Source: a virus (lineage: Duplodnaviria; Heunggongvirae; Uroviricota; Caudoviricetes). From it: a stretch of 23,598 nucleotides of DNA. This document shows, piece by piece, positions 534 to 22,220 of this stretch. The translations under genes and the position numbers were made by a program. Under the pieces are notes generated by a model. It was not told where the DNA came from and did not search any database. It saw only the letters and a list, made by a program, of their open reading frames with translations. The DNA lies in IMG/VR virus record IMGVR_UViG_3300023312_000045, one strand, 5' to 3'. Each line of letters starts with the position of its first letter. Position 1 is the stretch's first letter.

Positions 534-1130
534 ATGATGCCTGCTGAACCTAAAACCTATAAACGCAAATCAACGCAATTTAAGCCACTAACAGCAATGC
601 AGGAGGCTTATTGCCAGTCATACATCAAAACGCCTGAAAACCAGACTCAGGCAGCGATTAACGCAGGATTCTCCCCAAATACAGCGGCAGTTAAAGCCAG
701 TGTCATGATGCGCGATGAACGCATTCAAAAACGGATTGCCGAGCTGATGGAAGAGCGCAACAAACGAATGCGCGTCAGTGCTGATTACGTTCTCATGCGC
801 CTGGTGGAGATCGACCAGATGGACGTGATCGACATCCTCAACGACGATGGGAGCCTTAAGCCAATCCGCGAGTGGCCGAAAATCTGGCGCACTACGCTTA
901 GTGGCTTTGATCTGTCATCGACCATCATGAACATGAACGAGGATTCGATAGAGACAATCCTCAAAAAAATTAAATGGCCTGACAAGGTGAAGAACCTCGA
1001 ACTGATTGGTAAGCACGTCGACGTCAACGCATTCAAAGAACGCCTGGATGTTAATGTGAATGTGACAATTGCTGATCGCATAGCGGCAGCCAGGAAGAGA
1101 CTGAAAGAACGTCAGGATGGCAATCAGTGA
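534..1130 (+). CDS. Terminase small subunit
   Basis: Segment LTAMQEAYCQSYIKTPENQTQAAINAGFSPNTAAVKASVMMRDERIQKRIAELMEE matches the conserved core of P27-type small terminases as recalled; immediately upstream of and overlapping terL. Start moved from ORF-track 456 to ATG 534 because the upstream part overlaps the terminator hairpin. Confidence 0.8.
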   Translation: MMPAEPKTYKRKSTQFKPLTAMQEAYCQSYIKTPENQTQAAINAGFSPNTAAVKASVMMRDERIQKRIAELMEERNKRMRVSADYVLMRLVEIDQMDVIDILNDDGSLKPIREWPKIWRTTLSGFDLSSTIMNMNEDSIETILKKIKWPDKVKNLELIGKHVDVNAFKERLDVNVNVTIADRIAAARKRLKERQDGNQ

Positions 1131-2602
1131 CAGATACAGCGTTATCTCCTGAAGAGCAGTTAATCGAGGATATTGCAGGGTTCACTCACGATCCGCTTGG
1201 CTATGCCCTCTATGCGTTCCCATGGGGGGAAGAGGGGACTGAACTGGCACATGCCACCGGCCCACGTCAGTGGCAGGCTGATGCGTTCCGAGAGATACGT
1301 GATCACCTGCAGAATCCAGAGACGCGCTATCAGCCGCTTATGCTGGCACGCGCTTCTGGTCACGGTATTGGTAAATCCGCATTCATCTCAATGCTGATCA
1401 ACTGGGGCATGTCCACTTGCGAGGATTGTAAGGTCGTGGTGACCGCCAACACCGACAACCAGCTACGAACGAAGACCTGGCCGGAAATTATCAAGTGGTC
1501 GAACCTTGCTATCACGAAAGACTGGTTTACCTGTACCGCTACCGCGATGTACAGCAATGACCTAGGGCACGACAAGCGGTGGCGGGCTGACGCAATACCC
1601 TGGTCTGAGCACAACACCGAGGCATTCGCCGGACTACACAACGAGCGCAAACGCATCATCGTGGTGTTTGATGAAGCGTCGAACATTGCGGATCTGGTGT
1701 GGGAAGTTGCCGAGGGTGCGCTTACGGACGAAGACACTGAGATTATCTGGGTGGCGTTCGGAAACCCTACACGTAACACCGGGCGTTTTCGCGAATGTTT
1801 CCGCAAATATAAACACCGCTGGAAAACTGCGCAGATTGACAGCCGGACGGTGGAAGGCACTAACAAACAGCAGTTGCAGAAATGGGTTGATGACTACGGG
1901 GAAGACAGCGACTTCGTTAAAATCCGTGTGCGTGGCATATTCCCTGATGCATCTGAATTGCAGTTTATCCCTACCGGTCTTACTGACGAGGCAATGAAAC
2001 GGGTGGTAACCGCTGCGCAGGTTGCACATGCTCCGGTGATAATCGGCGTTGACCCGGCATACTCCGGCGTTGATGACGCTGTGATATACCTGCGGCAGGG
2101 GCTACACAGTAAGGTGCTGTGGACTGGCAACAAGACTACCGACGATCTGATTATGGCGAAGCGTATCGCTGACTTTGAAGACCAGTATCAGGCTGACGCG
2201 GTGTTCATCGACTTCGGTTACGGAACCGGTTTGAAGTCAATCGGTGACGGCTGGGGTCGTACATGGCAACTTGTTCCGTTCGGTGGCGCGTCTACTGACC
2301 CGCAGATGCTCAACAAGCGTGGGGAGATGTTCAATTCATGCAAGACATGGCTGAGGCTGGGCGGCATGCTGGATGACCAGGAAACAGCAGACGACCTGTC
2401 GGCGGCAGAGTACAAAGTTCGAGTGGACGGTAAAATCGTTATCGAACCGAAGGAAGATATCAAAGAGCGACTTGGGCGTTCTCCTGGTAAAGGCGATGCG
2501 CTACTGCTGACGTTTGCTTTCCCGGTCTCGAAACGCATAAATATACCTGGACAGCAAAGCCAGCAGGGAAGGGCCATAACGGATTATGACCCTTATGCTT
2601 AA
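1127..2602 (+). CDS. Terminase large subunit
   Basis: 491 aa; P-loop-like GHGIGKS motif; position between terS and portal; GTG start overlapping the terS stop. Confidence 0.8.
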   Translation: MTDTALSPEEQLIEDIAGFTHDPLGYALYAFPWGEEGTELAHATGPRQWQADAFREIRDHLQNPETRYQPLMLARASGHGIGKSAFISMLINWGMSTCEDCKVVVTANTDNQLRTKTWPEIIKWSNLAITKDWFTCTATAMYSNDLGHDKRWRADAIPWSEHNTEAFAGLHNERKRIIVVFDEASNIADLVWEVAEGALTDEDTEIIWVAFGNPTRNTGRFRECFRKYKHRWKTAQIDSRTVEGTNKQQLQKWVDDYGEDSDFVKIRVRGIFPDASELQFIPTGLTDEAMKRVVTAAQVAHAPVIIGVDPAYSGVDDAVIYLRQGLHSKVLWTGNKTTDDLIMAKRIADFEDQYQADAVFIDFGYGTGLKSIGDGWGRTWQLVPFGGASTDPQMLNKRGEMFNSCKTWLRLGGMLDDQETADDLSAAEYKVRVDGKIVIEPKEDIKERLGRSPGKGDALLLTFAFPVSKRINIPGQQSQQGRAITDYDPYA

Positions 2603-2652
2603 TCCGCTGGTGGGGATAATACTGCTGATATCCTCTGGTGAGGATAAAACAA

Positions 2653-2677
2653 AGCCAGCTCATCGGCTGGCTGTTTG
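2653..2677 (+). terminator. Terminator-like hairpin after terL (AGCCAGC-TCATCG-GCTGGCT then GTTTG)
   Basis: 7-bp stem read directly; weak T tract; immediately followed by palindrome copy 2. Confidence 0.4.
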
Positions 2678-2688
2678 TGACATGTCAC
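2677..2688. repeat. 12-bp perfect palindrome GTGACATGTCAC, copy 2 of 3
   Basis: Exact sequence at 2677-2688 between the convergent terL (+) and 2693..3067 (-) genes. Confidence 0.9.
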
Positions 2689-2692
2689 GGTG

Positions 2693-3067
2693 TTATTGCT
2701 CGCTTAACTTCTGCTTCAGCAAGTAACCTTCGAGCATCCAGATTTTGTTTACAGCATTCTGCCGGGCAATCTTCCGACCAATTTCTGCATCAAAGTTTTC
2801 CGGGCTTGCACAGGCACTCTCTCCGGTAACGGTGAAGCCATTCTTCAGTACCAATACGCAGAAAGTGAGAAGGTGCAGAGCATCAGGGGTGGCTTCGACA
2901 TAAGGCTCCGGATTATAAATAAGGTCATCTTCTTTAGCCTGGTGGTCACCCTGCGCAGCAGTGAAAAAATGCTCACTGCAAATGAGGCCTTCAATTTTCT
3001 CGGGTGTTACACGCGGAGCGGTTTTGCCTTTCTCAACGATTTCTTTTTCGATTTGCTGGTCGTTCAT
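2693..3067 (-). CDS. Hypothetical moron protein (124 aa), opposite strand to the flanking late genes
   Basis: ORF with AAGGTGAG Shine-Dalgarno 11 nt upstream; inserted between terL and portal; possibly a gp49/Sf6 gene 66-like phage protein (weak recollection only). Confidence 0.5.
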   Translation of the reverse strand: MNDQQIEKEIVEKGKTAPRVTPEKIEGLICSEHFFTAAQGDHQAKEDDLIYNPEPYVEATPDALHLLTFCVLVLKNGFTVTGESACASPENFDAEIGRKIARQNAVNKIWMLEGYLLKQKLSEQ

Positions 3068-3078
3068 AATCTCACCTT

Positions 3079-3102
3079 AAAAAAATGCCCGGCGAACCGG
3101 GC
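3079..3102 (-). terminator. Rho-independent terminator/attenuator hairpin directly upstream of the 124-aa gene RBS
   Basis: Minus-strand reading GCCCGG-UUCG-CCGGGC followed by AUUUUUUU, then AAGGUGAG and AUG. Confidence 0.55.
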
Positions 3103-3185
3103 GAACTGGAAGCAATGAGTTATGCCTTCCGTGGCTGTACGGGTTTACAGCATGAAGTCATCGCAATGGCGTCCTGCTGTAAAAA

Positions 3186-3222
3186 GGGCGGTGATAGTCC
3201 TTCAAGGGAAACTATCACCGCC
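3186..3222 (-). terminator. Rho-independent terminator downstream of the tRNA (12-bp perfect stem, 12-nt loop, then CUUUUU on minus strand)
   Basis: GGCGGTGATAGT / ACTATCACCGCC inverted repeat read at 3187-3222 with A-tract 3181-3185 on the + strand. Confidence 0.65.
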
Positions 3223-3265
3223 AAGCACCTGGAACTTCTGGCATCACGGTCCTTAGGCGTGATTC

Positions 3266-3342
3266 TGGCGTGGCATGCAGGATTCGAACCTGCGACCAAC
3301 CGCTTAGAAGGCGGTTGCTCTGTCCAACTGAGCTAATGCCAC
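3266..3342 (-). tRNA. tRNA-Arg (anticodon UCU), phage-encoded argU-like
   Basis: Reverse complement folds as a canonical cloverleaf: acceptor GTGGCAT/ATGCCAC, D-stem GCTC/GAGC, anticodon stem ACCGC/GCGGT with loop CTTCTAA (anticodon TCT), T-stem GCAGG/CCTGC with TTCGAAT loop, discriminator G and encoded CCA. Confidence 0.88.
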
Positions 3343-3664
3343 AACGCTGAGAGCACTTAGCCTGTTAAGGCGCCACACTTTGTCGCGGCTCCATAAATGC
3401 TCTCATCGTTGTACCCTCGTCTCTTCCGAGGCGTCACACCGAATCGCCGGGATGGTGAATCCCCGTGCGCGGAATAAAACCGCTCGACTTGCACATTCCG
3501 GCTACCTGGTTCGTTTGCCCGAGCAAGGGAGGGTGCCCCTTAAACGTATCCAGACCGCTATCGGCGCATGTGCCATACGCCGTACTGCTCAAAATAAAAG
3601 CTCACTCCACCTGTTTAATTTAACGACAAGCCAGTCAGGTTAGTAACCAGAATGAGCCCTTTGG

Positions 3665-3679
3665 TTACCTGAAAGGTAA
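3665..3679. promoter_or_regulatory. TTACC-N5-GGTAA site A, upstream of the portal operon; followed by TAATTA -10-like hexamer
   Basis: TTACCtgaaaGGTAA read at 3665-3679; identical 17-mer TTACCTGAAAGGTAATA also present at site B. Confidence 0.55.
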
Positions 3680-3726
3680 TAATTAACGCGTTAAATGTCA
3701 ACCTTCTACGATAAATAAATCATATG

Positions 3727-3741
3727 TGGTTAAATTGGTAA
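3727..3741. promoter_or_regulatory. Degenerate second site TGGTT-N5-GGTAA within shared CATATGTGGTT...GGTAATA element (portal operon leader)
   Basis: catatgTGGTTaaattGGTAAtaa at 3721-3743; the same element occurs upstream of the tailspike gene. Confidence 0.4.
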
Positions 3742-3769
3742 TAATTTAATTGCGTACGGAGTCATTGAT

Positions 3770-3976
3770 ATGTGCATGGGTAGCTCACCATCAGTGCCTG
3801 CAACACCAGAAGTTCAGGCAGCACCACAGGAGCAGGATGCCGCCGTTGTTGATGCCCGCGACGAAGAAACACGTCGCCGTCGCGCTGCTGCTGGTCGTAG
3901 TTCTACGCTGCTTACCGGTTCTCAGGGCGACACATCAACCGCTAATACCAGCGGTAAAACGCTGCTTGGTCAGTAA
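3770..3976 (+). CDS. Small hypothetical protein (68 aa), low-complexity, first gene of the portal operon
   Basis: ORF with the same 12-nt RBS context CGGAGTCATTGA as the portal gene; no recognisable domain. Confidence 0.4.
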   Translation: MCMGSSPSVPATPEVQAAPQEQDAAVVDARDEETRRRRAAAGRSSTLLTGSQGDTSTANTSGKTLLGQ

Positions 3977-3990
3977 CCGGAGTCATTGAA

Positions 3991-5670
3991 ATGGCGGAAA
4001 CAACTAAAGAGCGATTGAACAAACAGTTCGCACAACTTGAAAGCGAGCGTCAGTCGTTCGAGCCGCACTGGCGCGAGTTGAGTGATTACATCAACCCGCG
4101 TGGTTCCCGCTTTCTGACTTCTGAAGTCAACCGTAACGATCGACGCAATACACGCATTATTGATTCGACCGGGACTATGGCGGCGCGCACTCTCGCCAGC
4201 GGCATGATGTCAGGCATCACAAGCCCTGCGCGTCCGTGGTTTCGCCTGGCTACGCCAGATCCTGAAATGATGGATTATGGTCCTGTTAAGTTGTGGCTCG
4301 AGGCGGTGCAGAACCGCATGAACGATATGTTCAATAAGTCGAATCTCTACCAGTCTCTTCCGCAGTTATACGGAAGCCTCGGCACATACAGCACTGGTGC
4401 AATGGCGGTGCTGGAGGATGACGAGGACATCATTCGCACAATGCCATTCCCGATAGGCAGTTACTACCTGGCTAACTCACCTCGTGGCAGTGTGGACACC
4501 TGTTTTCGCAAGTTCTCTATGACTGTTCGTCAGCTTGTTCAGGAGTTCGGGCTAAATAACGTCAGCGAATCCGTAAAAAGCATGTGGGAAAGCGGCACCT
4601 ACGAGAAGTGGATTGAAGTGATGCATTCGGTTTACCCGAACATTGACCGCGATACATCGAAGCTGGATAGCAAGAACAAGCCATTCAAATCGGTTTATTA
4701 CGAGGTTGGTGGCGATAACGACAAGTTGTTGCGTGAGTCCGGATTCGATGAGTTTCCAATTATGGCTCCGCGCTGGGAAGTTAACGGCGAAGATGTTTAT
4801 GGATCATCATGCCCGGGTATGCTGGCGCTTGGACCTGTTAAGGCATTGCAGCTTCTCCAGAAGCGCAAGTCGCAGTTGATTGATAAAGCCACCAATCCGC
4901 CGATGGTTGCTCCGACTTCCCTCAAGAATCAGCGCGCCTCCCTTCTTCCTGGCGACATCACGTATATCGATCAGATTACTGGTCAGGATGGTTTCAGGCC
5001 TGCTTATCTGGTTAACCCCAGTACAGCAGATTTGGTGGCAGACATTCAGGACACTCGTCAAATCATTAACAGCGCCTACTTTGTCGATCTGTTCATGATG
5101 TTGCAGAACATCAATACCCGCTCGATGCCTGTGGAAGCGGTGATCGAAATGAAAGAAGAAAAACTTCTGATGTTGGGGCCGGTTCTGGAGCGCCTGAACG
5201 ACGAATGTCTTAATCCTCTCATTGATCGCTCTTTCTCGATGATGGTGCGTAAAAACATGCTGCCGCCACCGCCTGACGCGATGGAAGGCATGCCCCTGAA
5301 GGTCGAATACATTTCCGTCATGGCTCAGGCGCAGAAGTCTATCGGCCTGTCCAGTCTGGCGTCCACGGTTAACTTCATTGGTCAACTTGCGCAAGCGAAA
5401 CCAGAAGCTCTCGACAAACTCAACGTTGATCAGGCGATCGATGCATTCGCTGATATGTCCGGAGTGTCTCCAACCGTCATTGTTCCGCAGGAACAGGTTG
5501 AGCAGGCTCGCCAGCAACGGGCACAGCAACAACAGCAGCAACAAATGATGGCGATGGGGATGGCGGCGGCACAGGGTGCCAAGACGCTAAGTGAAGCTAA
5601 AACTTCGGATCCGAGTGTTTTGTCAGCTATGGCGAATGCAGTTAGTGGTCAGGGTGGGCAATCACAATGA
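3991..5670 (+). CDS. Portal (head-to-tail connector) protein, T7 gp8-type
   Basis: 559 aa; the N-terminal LASGMMSGITSPARPWFRL region and the Q/A/M-rich C-terminus (QQRAQQQQQQQMMAMGMAAAQG) resemble the T7 connector as recalled; lies after the terminase genes. Confidence 0.8.
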   Translation: MAETTKERLNKQFAQLESERQSFEPHWRELSDYINPRGSRFLTSEVNRNDRRNTRIIDSTGTMAARTLASGMMSGITSPARPWFRLATPDPEMMDYGPVKLWLEAVQNRMNDMFNKSNLYQSLPQLYGSLGTYSTGAMAVLEDDEDIIRTMPFPIGSYYLANSPRGSVDTCFRKFSMTVRQLVQEFGLNNVSESVKSMWESGTYEKWIEVMHSVYPNIDRDTSKLDSKNKPFKSVYYEVGGDNDKLLRESGFDEFPIMAPRWEVNGEDVYGSSCPGMLALGPVKALQLLQKRKSQLIDKATNPPMVAPTSLKNQRASLLPGDITYIDQITGQDGFRPAYLVNPSTADLVADIQDTRQIINSAYFVDLFMMLQNINTRSMPVEAVIEMKEEKLLMLGPVLERLNDECLNPLIDRSFSMMVRKNMLPPPPDAMEGMPLKVEYISVMAQAQKSIGLSSLASTVNFIGQLAQAKPEALDKLNVDQAIDAFADMSGVSPTVIVPQEQVEQARQQRAQQQQQQQMMAMGMAAAQGAKTLSEAKTSDPSVLSAMANAVSGQGGQSQ

Positions 5671-21318: not shown

Positions 21319-21975
21319 TCAGAAGAACCCTGCCTTGTCGTTGATGTACTCCGCGTGGGTCTGGATATCACGCAGGCATTTGCTCACACCGACGATGTAG
21401 CAGAACATGGTGGTCAGTTCCGCCGCCGCGCCCGATACATCGTGCCCGTCTTCCTGTAACTGGTTCAGCAGATTCATCAGCAGTGAGTTCTCCGTCAGGC
21501 CGAGAACACCAGACGGCGAATGAATCAGGCTGCGGTAGCCGGGCTTCAGTGGGGCGCTGTATTCTTTTTTGTCTTCCAGCTTGATCGCCTCCATTATGGC
21601 GGGCATGAAGCCTGACAAGACCTTCTCCACTTTTGTTTCTTGTTGTCTTAAACGTTTCTCGCATTCAATGAAGTAGCGTCGCACCTGGCGACCTTTTTCG
21701 TTACGCTCGACCATCGCCAGCTCTTTGGCTGTATCAAGGGTGAGGTGGTACTCTTTGCGGTTGTGGCCGCCTCTACCAGATGTTTGCTTTCCCAAATTGG
21801 AAAGCAAAATATAGTCTTGATTTTCAATGAATTCGTATTCTGATATGCGATTTGTAATCCATGCTGCAAACACCTTTTTAACACCTAAAAAAGCGTGCAG
21901 ATCGCGGGCATTACAAAGTAGGGCTGTTTCGTTAGATATAGTGCCGTTGAATACGGGGATGAGTTGAGCGTTCAT
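21319..21975 (-). CDS. Phage antirepressor, AntA-type N-terminal domain plus KilAC/ANT-like C-terminal domain
   Basis: N-terminal region ([29 protein letters not shown]...[33 protein letters not shown]) matches the AntA antirepressor domain as recalled; C-terminal 70 aa are paralogous to the 90-aa protein at 22293..22565. Confidence 0.75.
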
Positions 21976-22004: not shown

Positions 22005-22052
22005 ACCACCGCTGAGACCAATCAGATGGTGGTGAACTGAACGGAGTTGGTC
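22005..22052 (-). other. Pseudoknot-capable structured element in the antirepressor leader
   Basis: Interleaved complementary hexamers: ACCACC (22005-22010) with GGTGGT (22028-22033), and GACCAA (22016-22021) with TTGGTC (22047-22052). Confidence 0.3.
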
Positions 22053-22133
22053 TTACCGGCCTAAGTGGTACCGGCGTCCTTTCGGACCCCCATTCAGCCC
22101 ACCATAATTCTGGCATGACTGTGCTATACGCAT

Positions 22134-22156
22134 AAAAAAACCACGTCTGGCGTGGT
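22134..22156 (-). terminator. Rho-independent terminator between the two antirepressor-family genes
   Basis: Minus-strand ACCACG-CCAGA-CGUGGU followed by UUUUUUU. Confidence 0.7.
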
Positions 22157-22167
22157 ATGCGCCACTT

Positions 22168-22220
22168 AGTAATCCGGGAGACCAATCCCGGCACTGGATT
22201 TTGCCAGTGCCCGATTACTA
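22168..22220 (-). other. Structured RNA element (two hairpins enclosed by a 7-bp outer stem) upstream of the terminator; candidate 3'UTR-derived or regulatory RNA
   Basis: AGTAATC...GATTACT outer stem enclosing CCGGGA-GACCAA-TCCCGG and CACTGG-ATTTTG-CCAGTG hairpins, read directly. Confidence 0.3.

What the first reader, a model, noticed from the sequence alone, without database searches (positions are those of the whole stretch)
2603..3990. Inserted island between terL and portal carrying a phage tRNA-Arg(UCU) with its own terminator and a reverse-oriented moron gene
The 1.4-kb gap between two normally adjacent late genes contains, on the opposite strand, a complete tRNA-Arg(UCU) (3266-3342), a 12-bp-stem terminator behind it (3186-3222) and a 124-aa gene. 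A UCU tRNA decodes the rare AGA codon; phage-borne argU-like tRNAs are known in lambdoid and Stx phages and can boost late-gene translation. The acceptor stem differs from what I recall of host argU, suggesting a phage-lineage tRNA rather than a captured attachment-site copy.
Basis: partly seen in the sequence, partly recalled or inferred. Interest (0 to 1): 0.4.

Follow-up and report, generated by a model that had tools for sequence, protein, structure and literature searches.

The report
tRNA embedded in conserved phage leader RNA
The phage arginine tRNA is real but already annotated in related phages; the new point is that it sits inside a larger, highly conserved, apparently undescribed folded RNA that starts an early transcript leading through two terminators into an anti-immunity gene.

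Summary
A tRNA-Arg(UCU) lies at 3266-3342 (minus strand), a 14-bp terminator at 3222-3187, and a 124-aa reverse gene at 2693-3067. The window is a phiV10-like Uetakevirus, and relatives already annotate this tRNA. The tRNA differs from host argU at 14 positions; every stem change is compensatory. The reverse gene belongs to the Acb4 family (PF13876, anti-CBASS nucleotide sponge).

The supposed spacer upstream of the tRNA is not spacer. Positions 3583-3409 (minus strand) encode a pseudoknotted RNA core with strong covariation. A long-range stem then abuts the tRNA 5' end. No Rfam family matches. The RNA occurs in 1840 of 5426 complete E. coli genomes and was unannotated in all but one of the 60 sampled hits. 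It also occurs in P1-like plasmids, lambdoid phages without an annotated N gene, and Klebsiella and Salmonella phages.

In other phages a cloverleaf-like module replaces the tRNA. The unit follows operator-overlapped early promoters and precedes terminators and variable accessory genes.

Best guess (about 0.4): a cis-acting leader RNA that lets RNA polymerase read through the terminators, with the tRNA cut out of the transcript. AGA-codon supply for late genes is weakly supported: portal, scaffold and capsid genes contain no AGA.

The parts
3696..3701 (-). -35 hexamer TTGACA of the leftward promoter
   Evidence: Best sigma-70-like match on the minus strand between 3800 and 3060. The same TTGACA-17-TACCTT arrangement recurs in the Uetakevirus-type upstream groups.
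3666..3680 (.). Palindrome TTACCTgaaAGGTAA overlapping the -10 hexamer TACCTT (3678-3673, minus strand); a candidate repressor operator
   Evidence: Read directly from the sequence. It is conserved in relatives. The homologous site in epsilon15 is annotated as a repressor and IHF binding site by the depositors. Binding was not tested.
3584..3666 (-). Predicted 5' leader between the promoter and the RNA core. In some relatives a second ACAAC...GUUGU stem module lies here.
   Evidence: The transcription start site is inferred, not mapped.
3409..3583 (-). Conserved structured RNA core: 5' hairpin P1, long-range P2, an H-type pseudoknot (S1/S2), hairpin P5 with a GAAGAGA loop, and the near-invariant 19-mer GGUAGCCGGAAUGUGCAAG
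   Evidence: Covariance model R1 scores 144.6 bits here. In 30 sequences, 96.6% of pair cells are standard pairs against 27-47% when partners are slid; 13 pairs show compensatory changes; 0 of 500 shuffles reach the observed values. S1 and S2 co-vary in the larger set. The 19-mer is invariant in 21 of 22 genome hits found with a different motif. No Rfam family matches.
3341..3412 (-). Long-range stem P6 (5' strand 3412-3395, 3' strand 3358-3341) around a variable insert. Its last two base pairs use G1 and U2 of the tRNA.
   Evidence: 36 distinct variants all form 16-19 inter-strand pairs across inserts of 6-167 nt, with mean z -6.4 against shuffled 3' strands.
3266..3342 (-). tRNA-Arg(UCU), CCA encoded
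3243..3263 (-). Conserved 3' trailer hairpin AUCACG-CCUAAGGAC-CGUGAU
   Evidence: It follows both real tRNAs and tRNA-like modules in many units.
3187..3222 (-). Terminator 1, the end of the RNA unit: GGCGGUGAUAGU...ACUAUCACCGCC followed by a U run
   Evidence: A homologous GGCGGU...ACCGCC terminator ends the unit in most groups.
3087..3102 (-). Terminator 2 (GCCCGGUUCGCCGGGC followed by a U run), lying directly before the ribosome-binding site of the next gene
   Evidence: The same U-run-then-AAGGUGA junction precedes different genes in relatives. No promoter-like site lies between terminator 1 and the start codon.
2693..3067 (-). 124-aa Acb4-family gene (PF13876; candidate cyclic-dinucleotide sponge, anti-CBASS)
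   Evidence: Pfam E 2.4e-34. phmmer against PDB 9e4w gives E 0.0039. AlphaFold2 model has pLDDT 84. The top 13 Foldseek hits are all SPO1 Acb4 chains. PF13876 is equated with Acb4 in PMC11722364.
2653..2672 (.). Hairpin between the convergent terL and acb4-like genes (two-way terminator)
   Evidence: phiV10 annotates a terminator at the same place.
3770..3976 (+). 68-aa epsilon15 gp3 homologue, first gene of the rightward portal operon; not part of the leftward module

Best explanation
Shown. The 1.1 kb between terL and the gp3/portal operon is a leftward module. Read on the minus strand it consists of, in order:
- a sigma-70-like promoter overlapped by a palindrome;
- an ~83-nt leader;
- a 175-nt pseudoknotted RNA core;
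- a long-range stem (P6);
- tRNA-Arg(UCU);
- a trailer hairpin;
- terminator 1, then terminator 2;
- a ribosome-binding site and an Acb4-family gene;
- a final terminator.
The core and stem belong to a conserved RNA family found in unrelated Enterobacterales phages. In many of those phages a cloverleaf-like non-tRNA module occupies the tRNA position.

Inferred mechanism. After repressor release, one early transcript starts near 3666. The folded core acts in cis on the transcribing RNA polymerase as a protein-independent processive antiterminator. This is functionally like the put RNAs of HK022 and HK639, though not homologous to them. Polymerase therefore reads through terminators 1 and 2 into the acb4-like counter-defence gene. 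RNase P and 3' processing release the tRNA from the same transcript. The tRNA adds AGA decoding capacity, mainly useful for terS and a few small genes. RNase P cleavage also defines the 3' end of the leader RNA.
For: Anatomy and family.
- tRNA.
- Core covariation. Pseudoknot co-variation in 153 copies. P6 stem.
- The G-U pairs fit only the minus strand.
- The predicted 491-nt transcript folds at -198 kcal/mol against -165.8 +/- 7.1 for shuffles, z -4.5.

Early-leader position, seen in three unrelated phage types.
- In lambdoid phages the unit starts right after the repressor-gene terminator, behind TTGACA-16/18-CATAAT or TACATT promoters, which is the pL position.
- In Uetakeviruses it lies behind TTGACA-17-TACCTT overlapped by a palindrome that epsilon15's depositors annotate as a repressor site.
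- In P1 it lies in the C1-controlled ban operon, immediately 5' of ban.

Read-through appears to be needed.
- Here, two terminators and no promoter-like site lie between the RNA and the gene.
- The unit ends in a strong terminator in most groups, yet same-strand genes follow.
- In some groups, reverse-oriented genes with terminators separate the core from the conserved next gene.
- cdtI has no annotated N gene, and its leftward operon runs from this RNA to xis. A related phage, LLS, is noted in print to lack N and to perhaps use a put-like RNA (PMC12315714).
- The downstream genes are diverse and none is N-like. This fits an element that acts on polymerase rather than on a particular gene.
- There is one copy per phage, as with the single annotated putL-like RNA of HK639.
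Against: - No experiment or transcript map is available. The promoter, transcription start and processing sites are all predicted.
- The RNA has no sequence or model similarity to HK022 or HK639 put. R1 finds nothing in either genome and motif searches in HK022 are negative. It is also two to three times larger than those RNAs.
- A promoter-RNA-terminator layout is equally what an independent stable RNA gene looks like.
- Antitermination does not explain the tRNA-like modules or the T-arm-like hairpins in the inserts.
- In P1 the core lies about 2.3 kb from the annotated ban promoter. In Klebsiella phage SopranoGao it lies after the lysis genes.
- The operator comparison in cdtI was only suggestive.
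- Same-strand downstream genes are the norm in phage genomes, so that count discriminates weakly.
Confidence: 0.4

Rival explanations
1. The core plus P6 stem is a stand-alone, stable, trans-acting noncoding RNA. It might be a protein-sequestering or ribonucleoprotein RNA, or one that recognises tRNA. It would be made from its own promoter, with RNase P cleavage at the adjoining tRNA or tRNA-like module setting its 3' end and terminator 1 ending the primary transcript. Under this view the acb4-like gene is expressed only by leaky read-through or from an unrecognised promoter.
For: - The unit has its own promoter and a strong terminator in most contexts.
- A tRNA or a cloverleaf-like module with acceptor-like and T-like arms follows the P6 stem directly. 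This is the arrangement that RNase P uses as punctuation.
- The 19-mer is almost invariant, as expected of a binding site.
- In four groups the core is followed at once by a terminator and a convergent gene.
- T-arm-like hairpins are frequent in the inserts.
Against: - In P1 and in group G1 the core is followed directly by a ribosome-binding site and an ORF, with no tRNA-like module or terminator. That is how a 5' untranslated region looks.
- It does not explain why N-less lambdoid phages place the unit between pL and all the early-left genes.
- No partner protein gene is consistently linked to it.
Confidence: 0.3
2. The core is a ligand- or tRNA-sensing riboswitch or attenuator that controls terminators 1 and 2.
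For: The core is pseudoknotted and aptamer-like, with highly conserved unpaired nucleotides. It lies in a 5' untranslated region in P1 and in group G1. Terminators follow it.
Against: There is no conserved expression platform. 100-400 nt of variable modules separate the core from the terminator. The downstream genes share no function. No Rfam riboswitch family matches.
Confidence: 0.1
3. One reading: a simple mosaic insertion. A phage tRNA supplies the rare AGA codon, and an unrelated moron sits beside it. The surrounding non-coding DNA is spacer.
For: The tRNA is intact and carries the ArgRS identity nucleotides (A20, C35, U36, G73, read; their role as identity elements is from my own knowledge). 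AGA plus AGG reach 8.1 per 1000 codons in the window's ORFs, with 12 in terS alone. The island's content varies between relatives.
Against: The 'spacer' shows compensatory covariation and is conserved across unrelated phages and in a third of E. coli genomes. The same unit carries a non-tRNA module in most other phages. The highly expressed late genes contain no AGA.
Confidence: 0.08
4. The tRNA and the tRNA-like pieces are scars of integration at tRNA genes (att-site remnants).
For: T-arm-like fragments are scattered through the inserts. Many phages integrate at tRNA genes.
Against: The attP of the phiV10 group lies near the integrase and targets guaA (PMC9782041). No integrase is adjacent to this region. 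The tRNA is complete and all its stem changes are compensatory. The flanks co-vary as RNA.
Confidence: 0.02

Closest known systems
put (polymerase-utilisation) antiterminator RNAs of lambdoid phages HK022 and HK639
   Same: Both are cis-encoded RNAs at the start of repressor-controlled early operons in phages without an annotated N gene. Both lie upstream of terminators. There is one copy in the left operon, as in HK639, where the depositors annotate a single putL-like RNA. put works without a dedicated phage protein (PMC9378689).
   Different: put RNAs are about 70 nt (HK022; two stem-loops, PMC9378689), and the HK639 feature is annotated as 126 nt. The core here is 175 nt, carries an H-type pseudoknot, and is followed by a long-range stem. 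There is no sequence or covariance-model similarity. Antitermination activity has not been tested.
Phage tRNA genes for rare Arg/Ile codons (ileZ-argN-argO of Stx phages; trnI, trnT and tRNA-Asn of P1)
   Same: Phage-borne tRNA-Arg(UCU) lying within a transcription unit. P1 carries the same RNA core next to its trnI. The Stx-phage tRNAs are cited from my own knowledge.
   Different: Here the tRNA occupies a slot that other phages fill with a non-tRNA cloverleaf-like module. The major late genes do not use AGA.
GOLLD and ROOL large phage-associated RNAs of Firmicutes (own knowledge)
   Same: Large, elaborately folded RNAs of phages and prophages, of unknown function, that are typically adjacent to tRNAs or contain them.
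   Different: Different phylum. There is no match to their Rfam models. The RNA here is smaller and sits in a clear promoter-proximal leader position.
RNase P-processed phage RNAs (the C4 antisense RNA of P1/P7; stable RNAs of the T4 tRNA cluster; own knowledge)
   Same: A noncoding RNA co-transcribed with, or shaped like, a tRNA, so that tRNA-processing enzymes define its ends.
   Different: Processing is only inferred here. The core is unrelated to C4, which the window also carries elsewhere (22025-22109).
Acb4 (anti-CBASS 4) of Bacillus phage SPO1, PDB 9e4w
   Same: The 124-aa protein matches PF13876 and the Acb4 fold.
   Different: Only about 25% identity to the SPO1 protein, with an extra N-terminal helical extension. 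Ligand binding and tetramer formation were not tested.

Membership tests
tRNA-Arg(UCU) | Cloverleaf recognised by tRNA models | tested here: met
   ARAGORN; Rfam RF00005 at 73.3 bits.
tRNA-Arg(UCU) | Anticodon UCU and the ArgRS identity nucleotides A20, C35, U36 and G/A73, plus a 3' CCA | tested here: met
   Read from the alignment. The D-arm, anticodon loop and T-arm are identical to K-12 argU. A20 and G73 are present and CCA is encoded. The role of these nucleotides as identity elements is from my own knowledge.
tRNA-Arg(UCU) | Expressed, processed and aminoacylated | not testable with these tools
   No expression data available.
Host argU copy / att-site tRNA | Identical to host argU and flanked by att repeats or an integrase | tested here: not met
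   14 differences from K-12 argU. Every one of the 5426 E. coli genomes has only an 85.9% match over 71 nt unless it carries the prophage. attP lies elsewhere.
Acb4 / PF13876 | Match to the family profile above the curated cut-off | tested here: met
   118.1 bits against a cut-off of 27, E 2.4e-34.
Acb4 / PF13876 | Acb4 fold | tested here: met
   Model pLDDT 84.3. The top 13 Foldseek hits against the PDB are 9e4w chains, probability 1.00, target TM 0.52-0.68.
Acb4 / PF13876 | Tetramer that binds 3'3'-cGAMP or other CBASS signals | not testable with these tools
   Needs biochemistry. The ligand-pocket residues were not compared.
HK022/HK639 put RNA | Sequence or structure homology to put (two stem-loops) | tested here: not met
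   R1 finds nothing in HK022 or HK639. Motif searches are negative. The HK639 putL-like sequence, read directly, shows no convincing similarity.
HK022/HK639 put RNA | Located just downstream of a repressor-controlled early promoter, upstream of terminators | tested here: met
   Promoters and operators are predicted, not mapped.
HK022/HK639 put RNA | Suppresses termination by binding the RNA polymerase beta' zinc-binding domain | not testable with these tools
   Needs reporter assays, in vitro transcription and rpoC mutants.
Any Rfam 15 family (including GOLLD, ROOL, riboswitches, Y-RNA-like, STnc and Isr sRNAs) | Covariance-model match to the core, the P6 stem or the tRNA-like module | tested here: not met
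   Gathering-threshold scan of the whole window. E<=5 scans of 2550-4050 and of the cdtI unit. The only relevant hit is the tRNA itself.
Intrinsic terminator | G+C-rich hairpin followed by a U run | tested here: met
   3222-3187, 3102-3087 and 2672-2653.

The most novel reading that the evidence does not exclude
The RNA at 3583-3341 founds a new class of phage leader RNA. It would be a protein-independent processive antiterminator, structurally unrelated to put, that uses a tRNA or tRNA-like module as built-in RNase P punctuation. It would drive exchangeable counter-defence and accessory genes behind a constant promoter-RNA-terminator-RBS cassette. It is carried by about a third of complete E. 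coli genomes, by P1-like plasmids, and by Salmonella and Klebsiella phages.
Probability: 0.3. Interest if true: 0.8.

Novelty: new variant of a known kind. Interest (0 to 1): 0.6.

Why it matters
The tRNA and the Acb4-like gene are known kinds of thing. They add only an annotation correction: RefSeq phiV10 lacks the tRNA and carries a doubtful ORF across it.

The structured RNA is another matter. It is long, pseudoknotted and strongly co-varying. It contains a 19-nt block that almost never changes. It is present in 34% of complete E. coli genomes and in the classic phage P1, yet no Rfam family or paper that I could find describes it.

If it is an antiterminator, it would explain how lambdoid phages without an annotated N gene, such as cdtI, express their early-left operons. 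It would also give a second, independent solution to RNA-only control of RNA polymerase. If instead it is a trans-acting RNA, it is a widespread phage ribonucleoprotein or decoy candidate.

Either way, the constant promoter-RNA-terminator-RBS cassette with swappable downstream genes marks a place to look for new anti-defence genes.

Tried and rejected
- Rfam at the gathering threshold and at E<=5 found nothing for the core, the P6 stem or the cdtI tRNA-like module.
- HK022 and HK639 put RNAs: both genomes were fetched. Neither motif searches nor the covariance model match.
- Pas sRNAs of pathogenic E. coli were read and found to be unrelated, Hfq-type sRNAs near lysis genes.
- Literature searches found no description of this RNA: put/antiterminator, HK639, phiV10 tRNA, N-independent antitermination, tRNA-like prophage RNA, and epsilon15 antitermination. 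King et al. 2011 (J Bacteriol) could not be opened.
- A protein-coding reading of 3343-3600 (ORFs of 45, 52 and 87 aa) was rejected. The variation is compensatory in stems and includes many G-U pairs.
- A plus-strand RNA was rejected because the G-U pairs would become A-C mismatches.
- Anticodon-loop mimicry as a general property of the tRNA-like modules was rejected. Only one module (L016, CUUUUAA, Lys-like) fits.
- RNAalifold on the concatenated P6 strands recovered only 5 pairs because of indels. Per-sequence folding with shuffled controls replaced it.
- The operator comparison between the two cdtI promoter regions was suggestive only.
- A possible kissing interaction between the P1 loop GGCACAU and AUGUGC of the 19-mer could not be tested, because both sides are nearly invariant.
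Full report
1. The observation

ARAGORN finds exactly one tRNA in the window: tRNA-Arg, anticodon tct, at 3266-3342 on the minus strand. Rfam's tRNA model scores it at 73.3 bits.

Behind it on the same strand lies a 14-bp hairpin with a U run at 3222-3187. The 124-aa ORF is at 2693-3067 on the minus strand. Two further terminator-like hairpins sit at 3102-3087, directly before that ORF's ribosome-binding site, and at 2672-2653, between the convergent terL and the ORF.

The ORF at 3770-3976 on the plus strand is the conserved epsilon15 gp3 homologue. It belongs with the portal operon. The leftward module therefore spans about 2650-3700.

2. Where the window comes from, and whether the island is known

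The region is 95.7-97.8% identical, over the aligned parts, to nine of the top fourteen hits, among them phiV10, O157 typing phages 9 and 10, TL-2011b, PAS61 and ZX5 (genus Uetakevirus). Several of these records already annotate the tRNA-Arg (PMC9782041).

RefSeq phiV10 does not annotate the tRNA. Instead it carries a plus-strand CDS, PhiV10p04, across it.

The module's content varies between relatives. SPN1S-type Salmonella phages and Klebsiella phages have the tRNA but a different reverse gene. Epsilon15 has the reverse gene but no tRNA.

So the feature is a conserved, variable slot of the genus rather than a recent insertion.

3. The tRNA

Against the K-12 tRNA-Arg next to intD (argU), the phage tRNA differs at 14 of 77 positions. 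The differences fall in the acceptor stem, the anticodon stem, position 20a and the variable loop. Every stem change is compensatory. The D-arm, anticodon loop and T-arm are identical, and CCA is encoded.

All 5426 complete E. coli genomes match only at 85.9% over 71 nt, through their own tRNA-Arg genes. Just 504 genomes carry the phage version with its flanks. The attP of this phage group lies elsewhere and targets guaA. The tRNA is therefore of phage lineage and is not an attachment-site copy.

Codon counts over 22 ORFs (6768 codons) give AGA at 4.9 and AGG at 3.3 per 1000. AGA is absent from terL, portal, scaffold and major capsid genes. It clusters in terS (6 AGA plus 6 AGG in 197 codons) and in a 113-aa regulator-like ORF.

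Codon supply is plausible for a few genes. It is not a general boost for late genes.

4. The reverse gene

The 124-aa protein matches Pfam PF13876 at E 2.4e-34. Chang et al. (bioRxiv 2024, PMC11722364) show that PF13876 is the Acb4 family. Its founding member, from phage SPO1, is a tetrameric sponge for CBASS cyclic dinucleotides.

phmmer finds SPO1 Acb4 (PDB 9e4w) at E 0.0039. An AlphaFold2 model built from 22 homologues has pLDDT 84. Its top 13 Foldseek hits against the PDB are all 9e4w chains, with probability 1.00 and target-normalised TM 0.52-0.68.

The 'moron' is therefore a probable counter-defence gene. Its ligand binding has not been tested.

5. The 'spacer' is a conserved structured RNA

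The 427 nt between the tRNA and gp3 were searched against phage genomes. Positions 3343-3583 are about 82% identical to unannotated DNA in lambdoid phages (cdtI, mEp460, Stx2c phages). Positions 3421-3583 are about 80% identical to P1, P7, D6 and SJ46. Weaker matches occur in Klebsiella phages, mEp390 and a Stenotrophomonas phage record.

In E. coli the stretch occurs in 1840 of 5426 complete genomes. That comprises 1920 chromosomal and 554 plasmid places. Of the 60 rows listed, 59 carry no annotated feature.

A different 5' motif retrieved 22 true members from species-representative genomes. Twenty-one are Enterobacterales; the other is a 1.7-kb contig binned as a Bacillota MAG.

Thirty non-redundant sequences were aligned. 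They support four nested helices and an H-type pseudoknot:
- P1, a 5' hairpin;
- P2, a long-range helix;
- S1 and S2, the two pseudoknot stems;
- P5, a hairpin with a GAAGAGA loop.

The support is as follows.
- 96.6% of pair cells are standard pairs, against 27-47% when partners are slid by 1-3 columns.
- 13 pairs carry compensatory changes.
- 0 of 500 column shuffles reach the observed values.
- Across all 153 copies, S1 appears as GGGA/UCCC, ACGA/UCGU, ACGC/GCGU, GCGA/UCGC and UUGA/UCAA.
- The S2 change C-to-A is always accompanied by G-to-U, in two different sequence backgrounds.
- The many G-U pairs fit only the minus strand.

The 19-mer GGUAGCCGGAAUGUGCAAG is invariant in 21 of the 22 genome hits that were found with the other motif. 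This suggests a binding or tertiary-contact site.

Covariance model R1 places the core at 3583-3409 on the minus strand.

No Rfam 15 family matches the core, its flanks, or the equivalent cdtI unit.

6. The unit around the core

Immediately 3' of the core, the strand ACAACGAUGAGAGCA... pairs with ...UGCUCUCAGCGUUGU across a variable insert of 6-167 nt. All 36 distinct variants form 16-19 inter-strand pairs, with mean z -6.4 against shuffled 3' strands.

The last two pairs of this stem (P6) use G1 and U2 of the tRNA.

What follows the stem differs by phage.
- In 30 loci of the Uetakevirus, SPN1S and Klebsiella types, it is tRNA-Arg(UCU).
- In most lambdoid and other contexts, it is a non-tRNA module such as GUGGUGAAUGCGCAGGCUGAUGCGC...GCCGGAGAUCAGCACCGGCCACCAC.
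- In P1 and a few others, nothing follows.

The non-tRNA module folds as a cloverleaf-like shape with acceptor-like, D-like and T-like arms. ARAGORN does not call it a tRNA, and Rfam finds no tRNA match in the cdtI unit.

A conserved trailer hairpin (AUCACG...CGUGAU) comes next, then a GGCGGU...ACCGCC terminator.

T-arm-like hairpins (GGUUCGAUUCC) are common in the inserts. One module has a tRNA-Lys-like anticodon arm.

The predicted 491-nt transcript of the window folds at -198 kcal/mol, against -165.8 +/- 7.1 for shuffles.

7. Context and mechanism

In cdtI, mEp390 and the BUCT708 record, the unit starts right after the repressor gene's terminator, on the same strand. It lies behind a strong promoter; in cdtI this is TTGACA-16-CATAAT, matching 11 of 12 positions. 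This is the pL position.

cdtI has Q but no annotated N, and its leftward operon runs from this RNA to xis. A related phage, LLS, has been noted to lack N and to perhaps rely on a put-like RNA (PMC12315714).

In Uetakeviruses the promoter TTGACA-17-TACCTT is overlapped by the palindrome TTACCTnnnAGGTAA. In the window the -35 hexamer is at 3701-3696 and the -10 hexamer at 3678-3673. Epsilon15's depositors annotate the homologous site as a repressor operator.

In P1 the core lies between trnI and ban, in the C1-controlled ban operon.

In the window, no promoter-like site lies between terminator 1 and the acb4-like start codon. Terminator 2 abuts the ribosome-binding site.

The same U-run-then-RBS junction precedes different genes in relatives. 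These include an Acb4-like gene, a phrog_4846 protein, a 262-282-aa hydrophobic protein of unknown function, a 141-aa protein matching phrog_11227 ('protease'), and an HNH-motif protein. None is N-like.

In some lambdoid groups, reverse-oriented genes with terminators lie between the core and the conserved next gene.

The simplest reading is an early, repressor-controlled transcript whose leader RNA allows polymerase to read through terminators. That is what put RNAs do in HK022 and HK639 (PMC9378689; HK639 annotation).

The RNA is not homologous to put. I rate this mechanism at about 0.4.

The main rival, at about 0.3, is a stand-alone stable RNA whose 3' end is cut by RNase P at the adjoining tRNA or tRNA-like module. 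A riboswitch-type sensor is less likely, because no conserved expression platform exists and the downstream genes are unrelated.

8. Verdict

The tRNA and the Acb4-like gene are known kinds of element and, taken alone, would score low.

The finding gains interest because the tRNA is embedded in a widespread, strongly co-varying, apparently undescribed phage RNA unit. I could not find that unit in Rfam or in the searchable literature.

I cannot exclude a description in a paper outside the held library. All transcript boundaries, processing steps and the function of the RNA are inferred.

Noticed in passing
window 22025-22210 (minus strand) and 21319-21975 (minus strand): Rfam hits to isrK (22134-22210, 67.7 bits) and to C4 antisense RNA (22025-22109, 61.2 bits) lie just upstream of an AntA/AntB antirepressor gene (PF08346, E 4e-26). 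This is a P1/P7 immI-like antirepressor control region in a podovirus.
   Followed up: partly
window 3085-3336 (plus strand); L001 2672-2923: RefSeq phiV10 annotates a hypothetical CDS (PhiV10p04) on the strand opposite the tRNA and terminator, and does not annotate the tRNA. The CDS has no Pfam match and is probably spurious.
   Followed up: partly
L006 (epsilon15) 2688-2756: Epsilon15 keeps only the first ~70 nt of the RNA core (the P1 hairpin and the start of P2). It then jumps to the region before terminator 2. The depositors annotate this stretch as an RNase III processing site. It looks like a deletion derivative of the unit.
   Followed up: partly
L016, about 100 nt downstream of the core (sense strand): One tRNA-like module contains a 5-bp stem with the loop CUUUUAA, identical to the E. 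coli tRNA-Lys(UUU) anticodon loop. It could be a decoy for, or a substitute against, anticodon nucleases. Only this one case was found.
   Followed up: partly
window 538-1130 (terS): terS has 6 AGA and 6 AGG among 197 codons, whereas terL, portal, scaffold and capsid genes have none or almost none. terS is the most likely client of the phage tRNA.
   Followed up: partly
window 3341-3358 and homologous P6 3' strands: The 3' strand of the P6 stem reads (A)GUGCUCUUUCC or GUGCUCUCAGC. This resembles the boxA core (UGCUCUUUA) that NusB/NusE bind in rrn and lambda antitermination (own knowledge). It is base-paired here, so the resemblance may be coincidental.
   Followed up: no
window 3067-3110 and relatives (L003, L044, L073): The junction 'terminator 2 U-run + AAGGUGA RBS' is constant while the gene behind it changes. 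Examples are an Acb4-like gene, a phrog_4846 protein, a 262-282-aa hydrophobic protein of unknown function, a 141-aa protein matching phrog_11227 ('protease'), and an HNH-motif protein. It behaves like an exchange point for accessory genes.
   Followed up: partly
one search hit list: 64 Synechococcus phage records match the query at 80-90% identity. This is presumably through their own tRNA-Arg genes only. It was not examined.
   Followed up: no
L008 (Stenotrophomonas phage vB_SmeS_BUCT708) 1444-1594: This record carries an RNA core and flanks that fall in the same downstream-sequence group as five IMG/VR viral contigs (L042, L056, L097, L099, L120). The core also resembles that of a Klebsiella phage (L007). 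All other genome hits are Enterobacterales, so the host assignment of this record may deserve a check.
   Followed up: no
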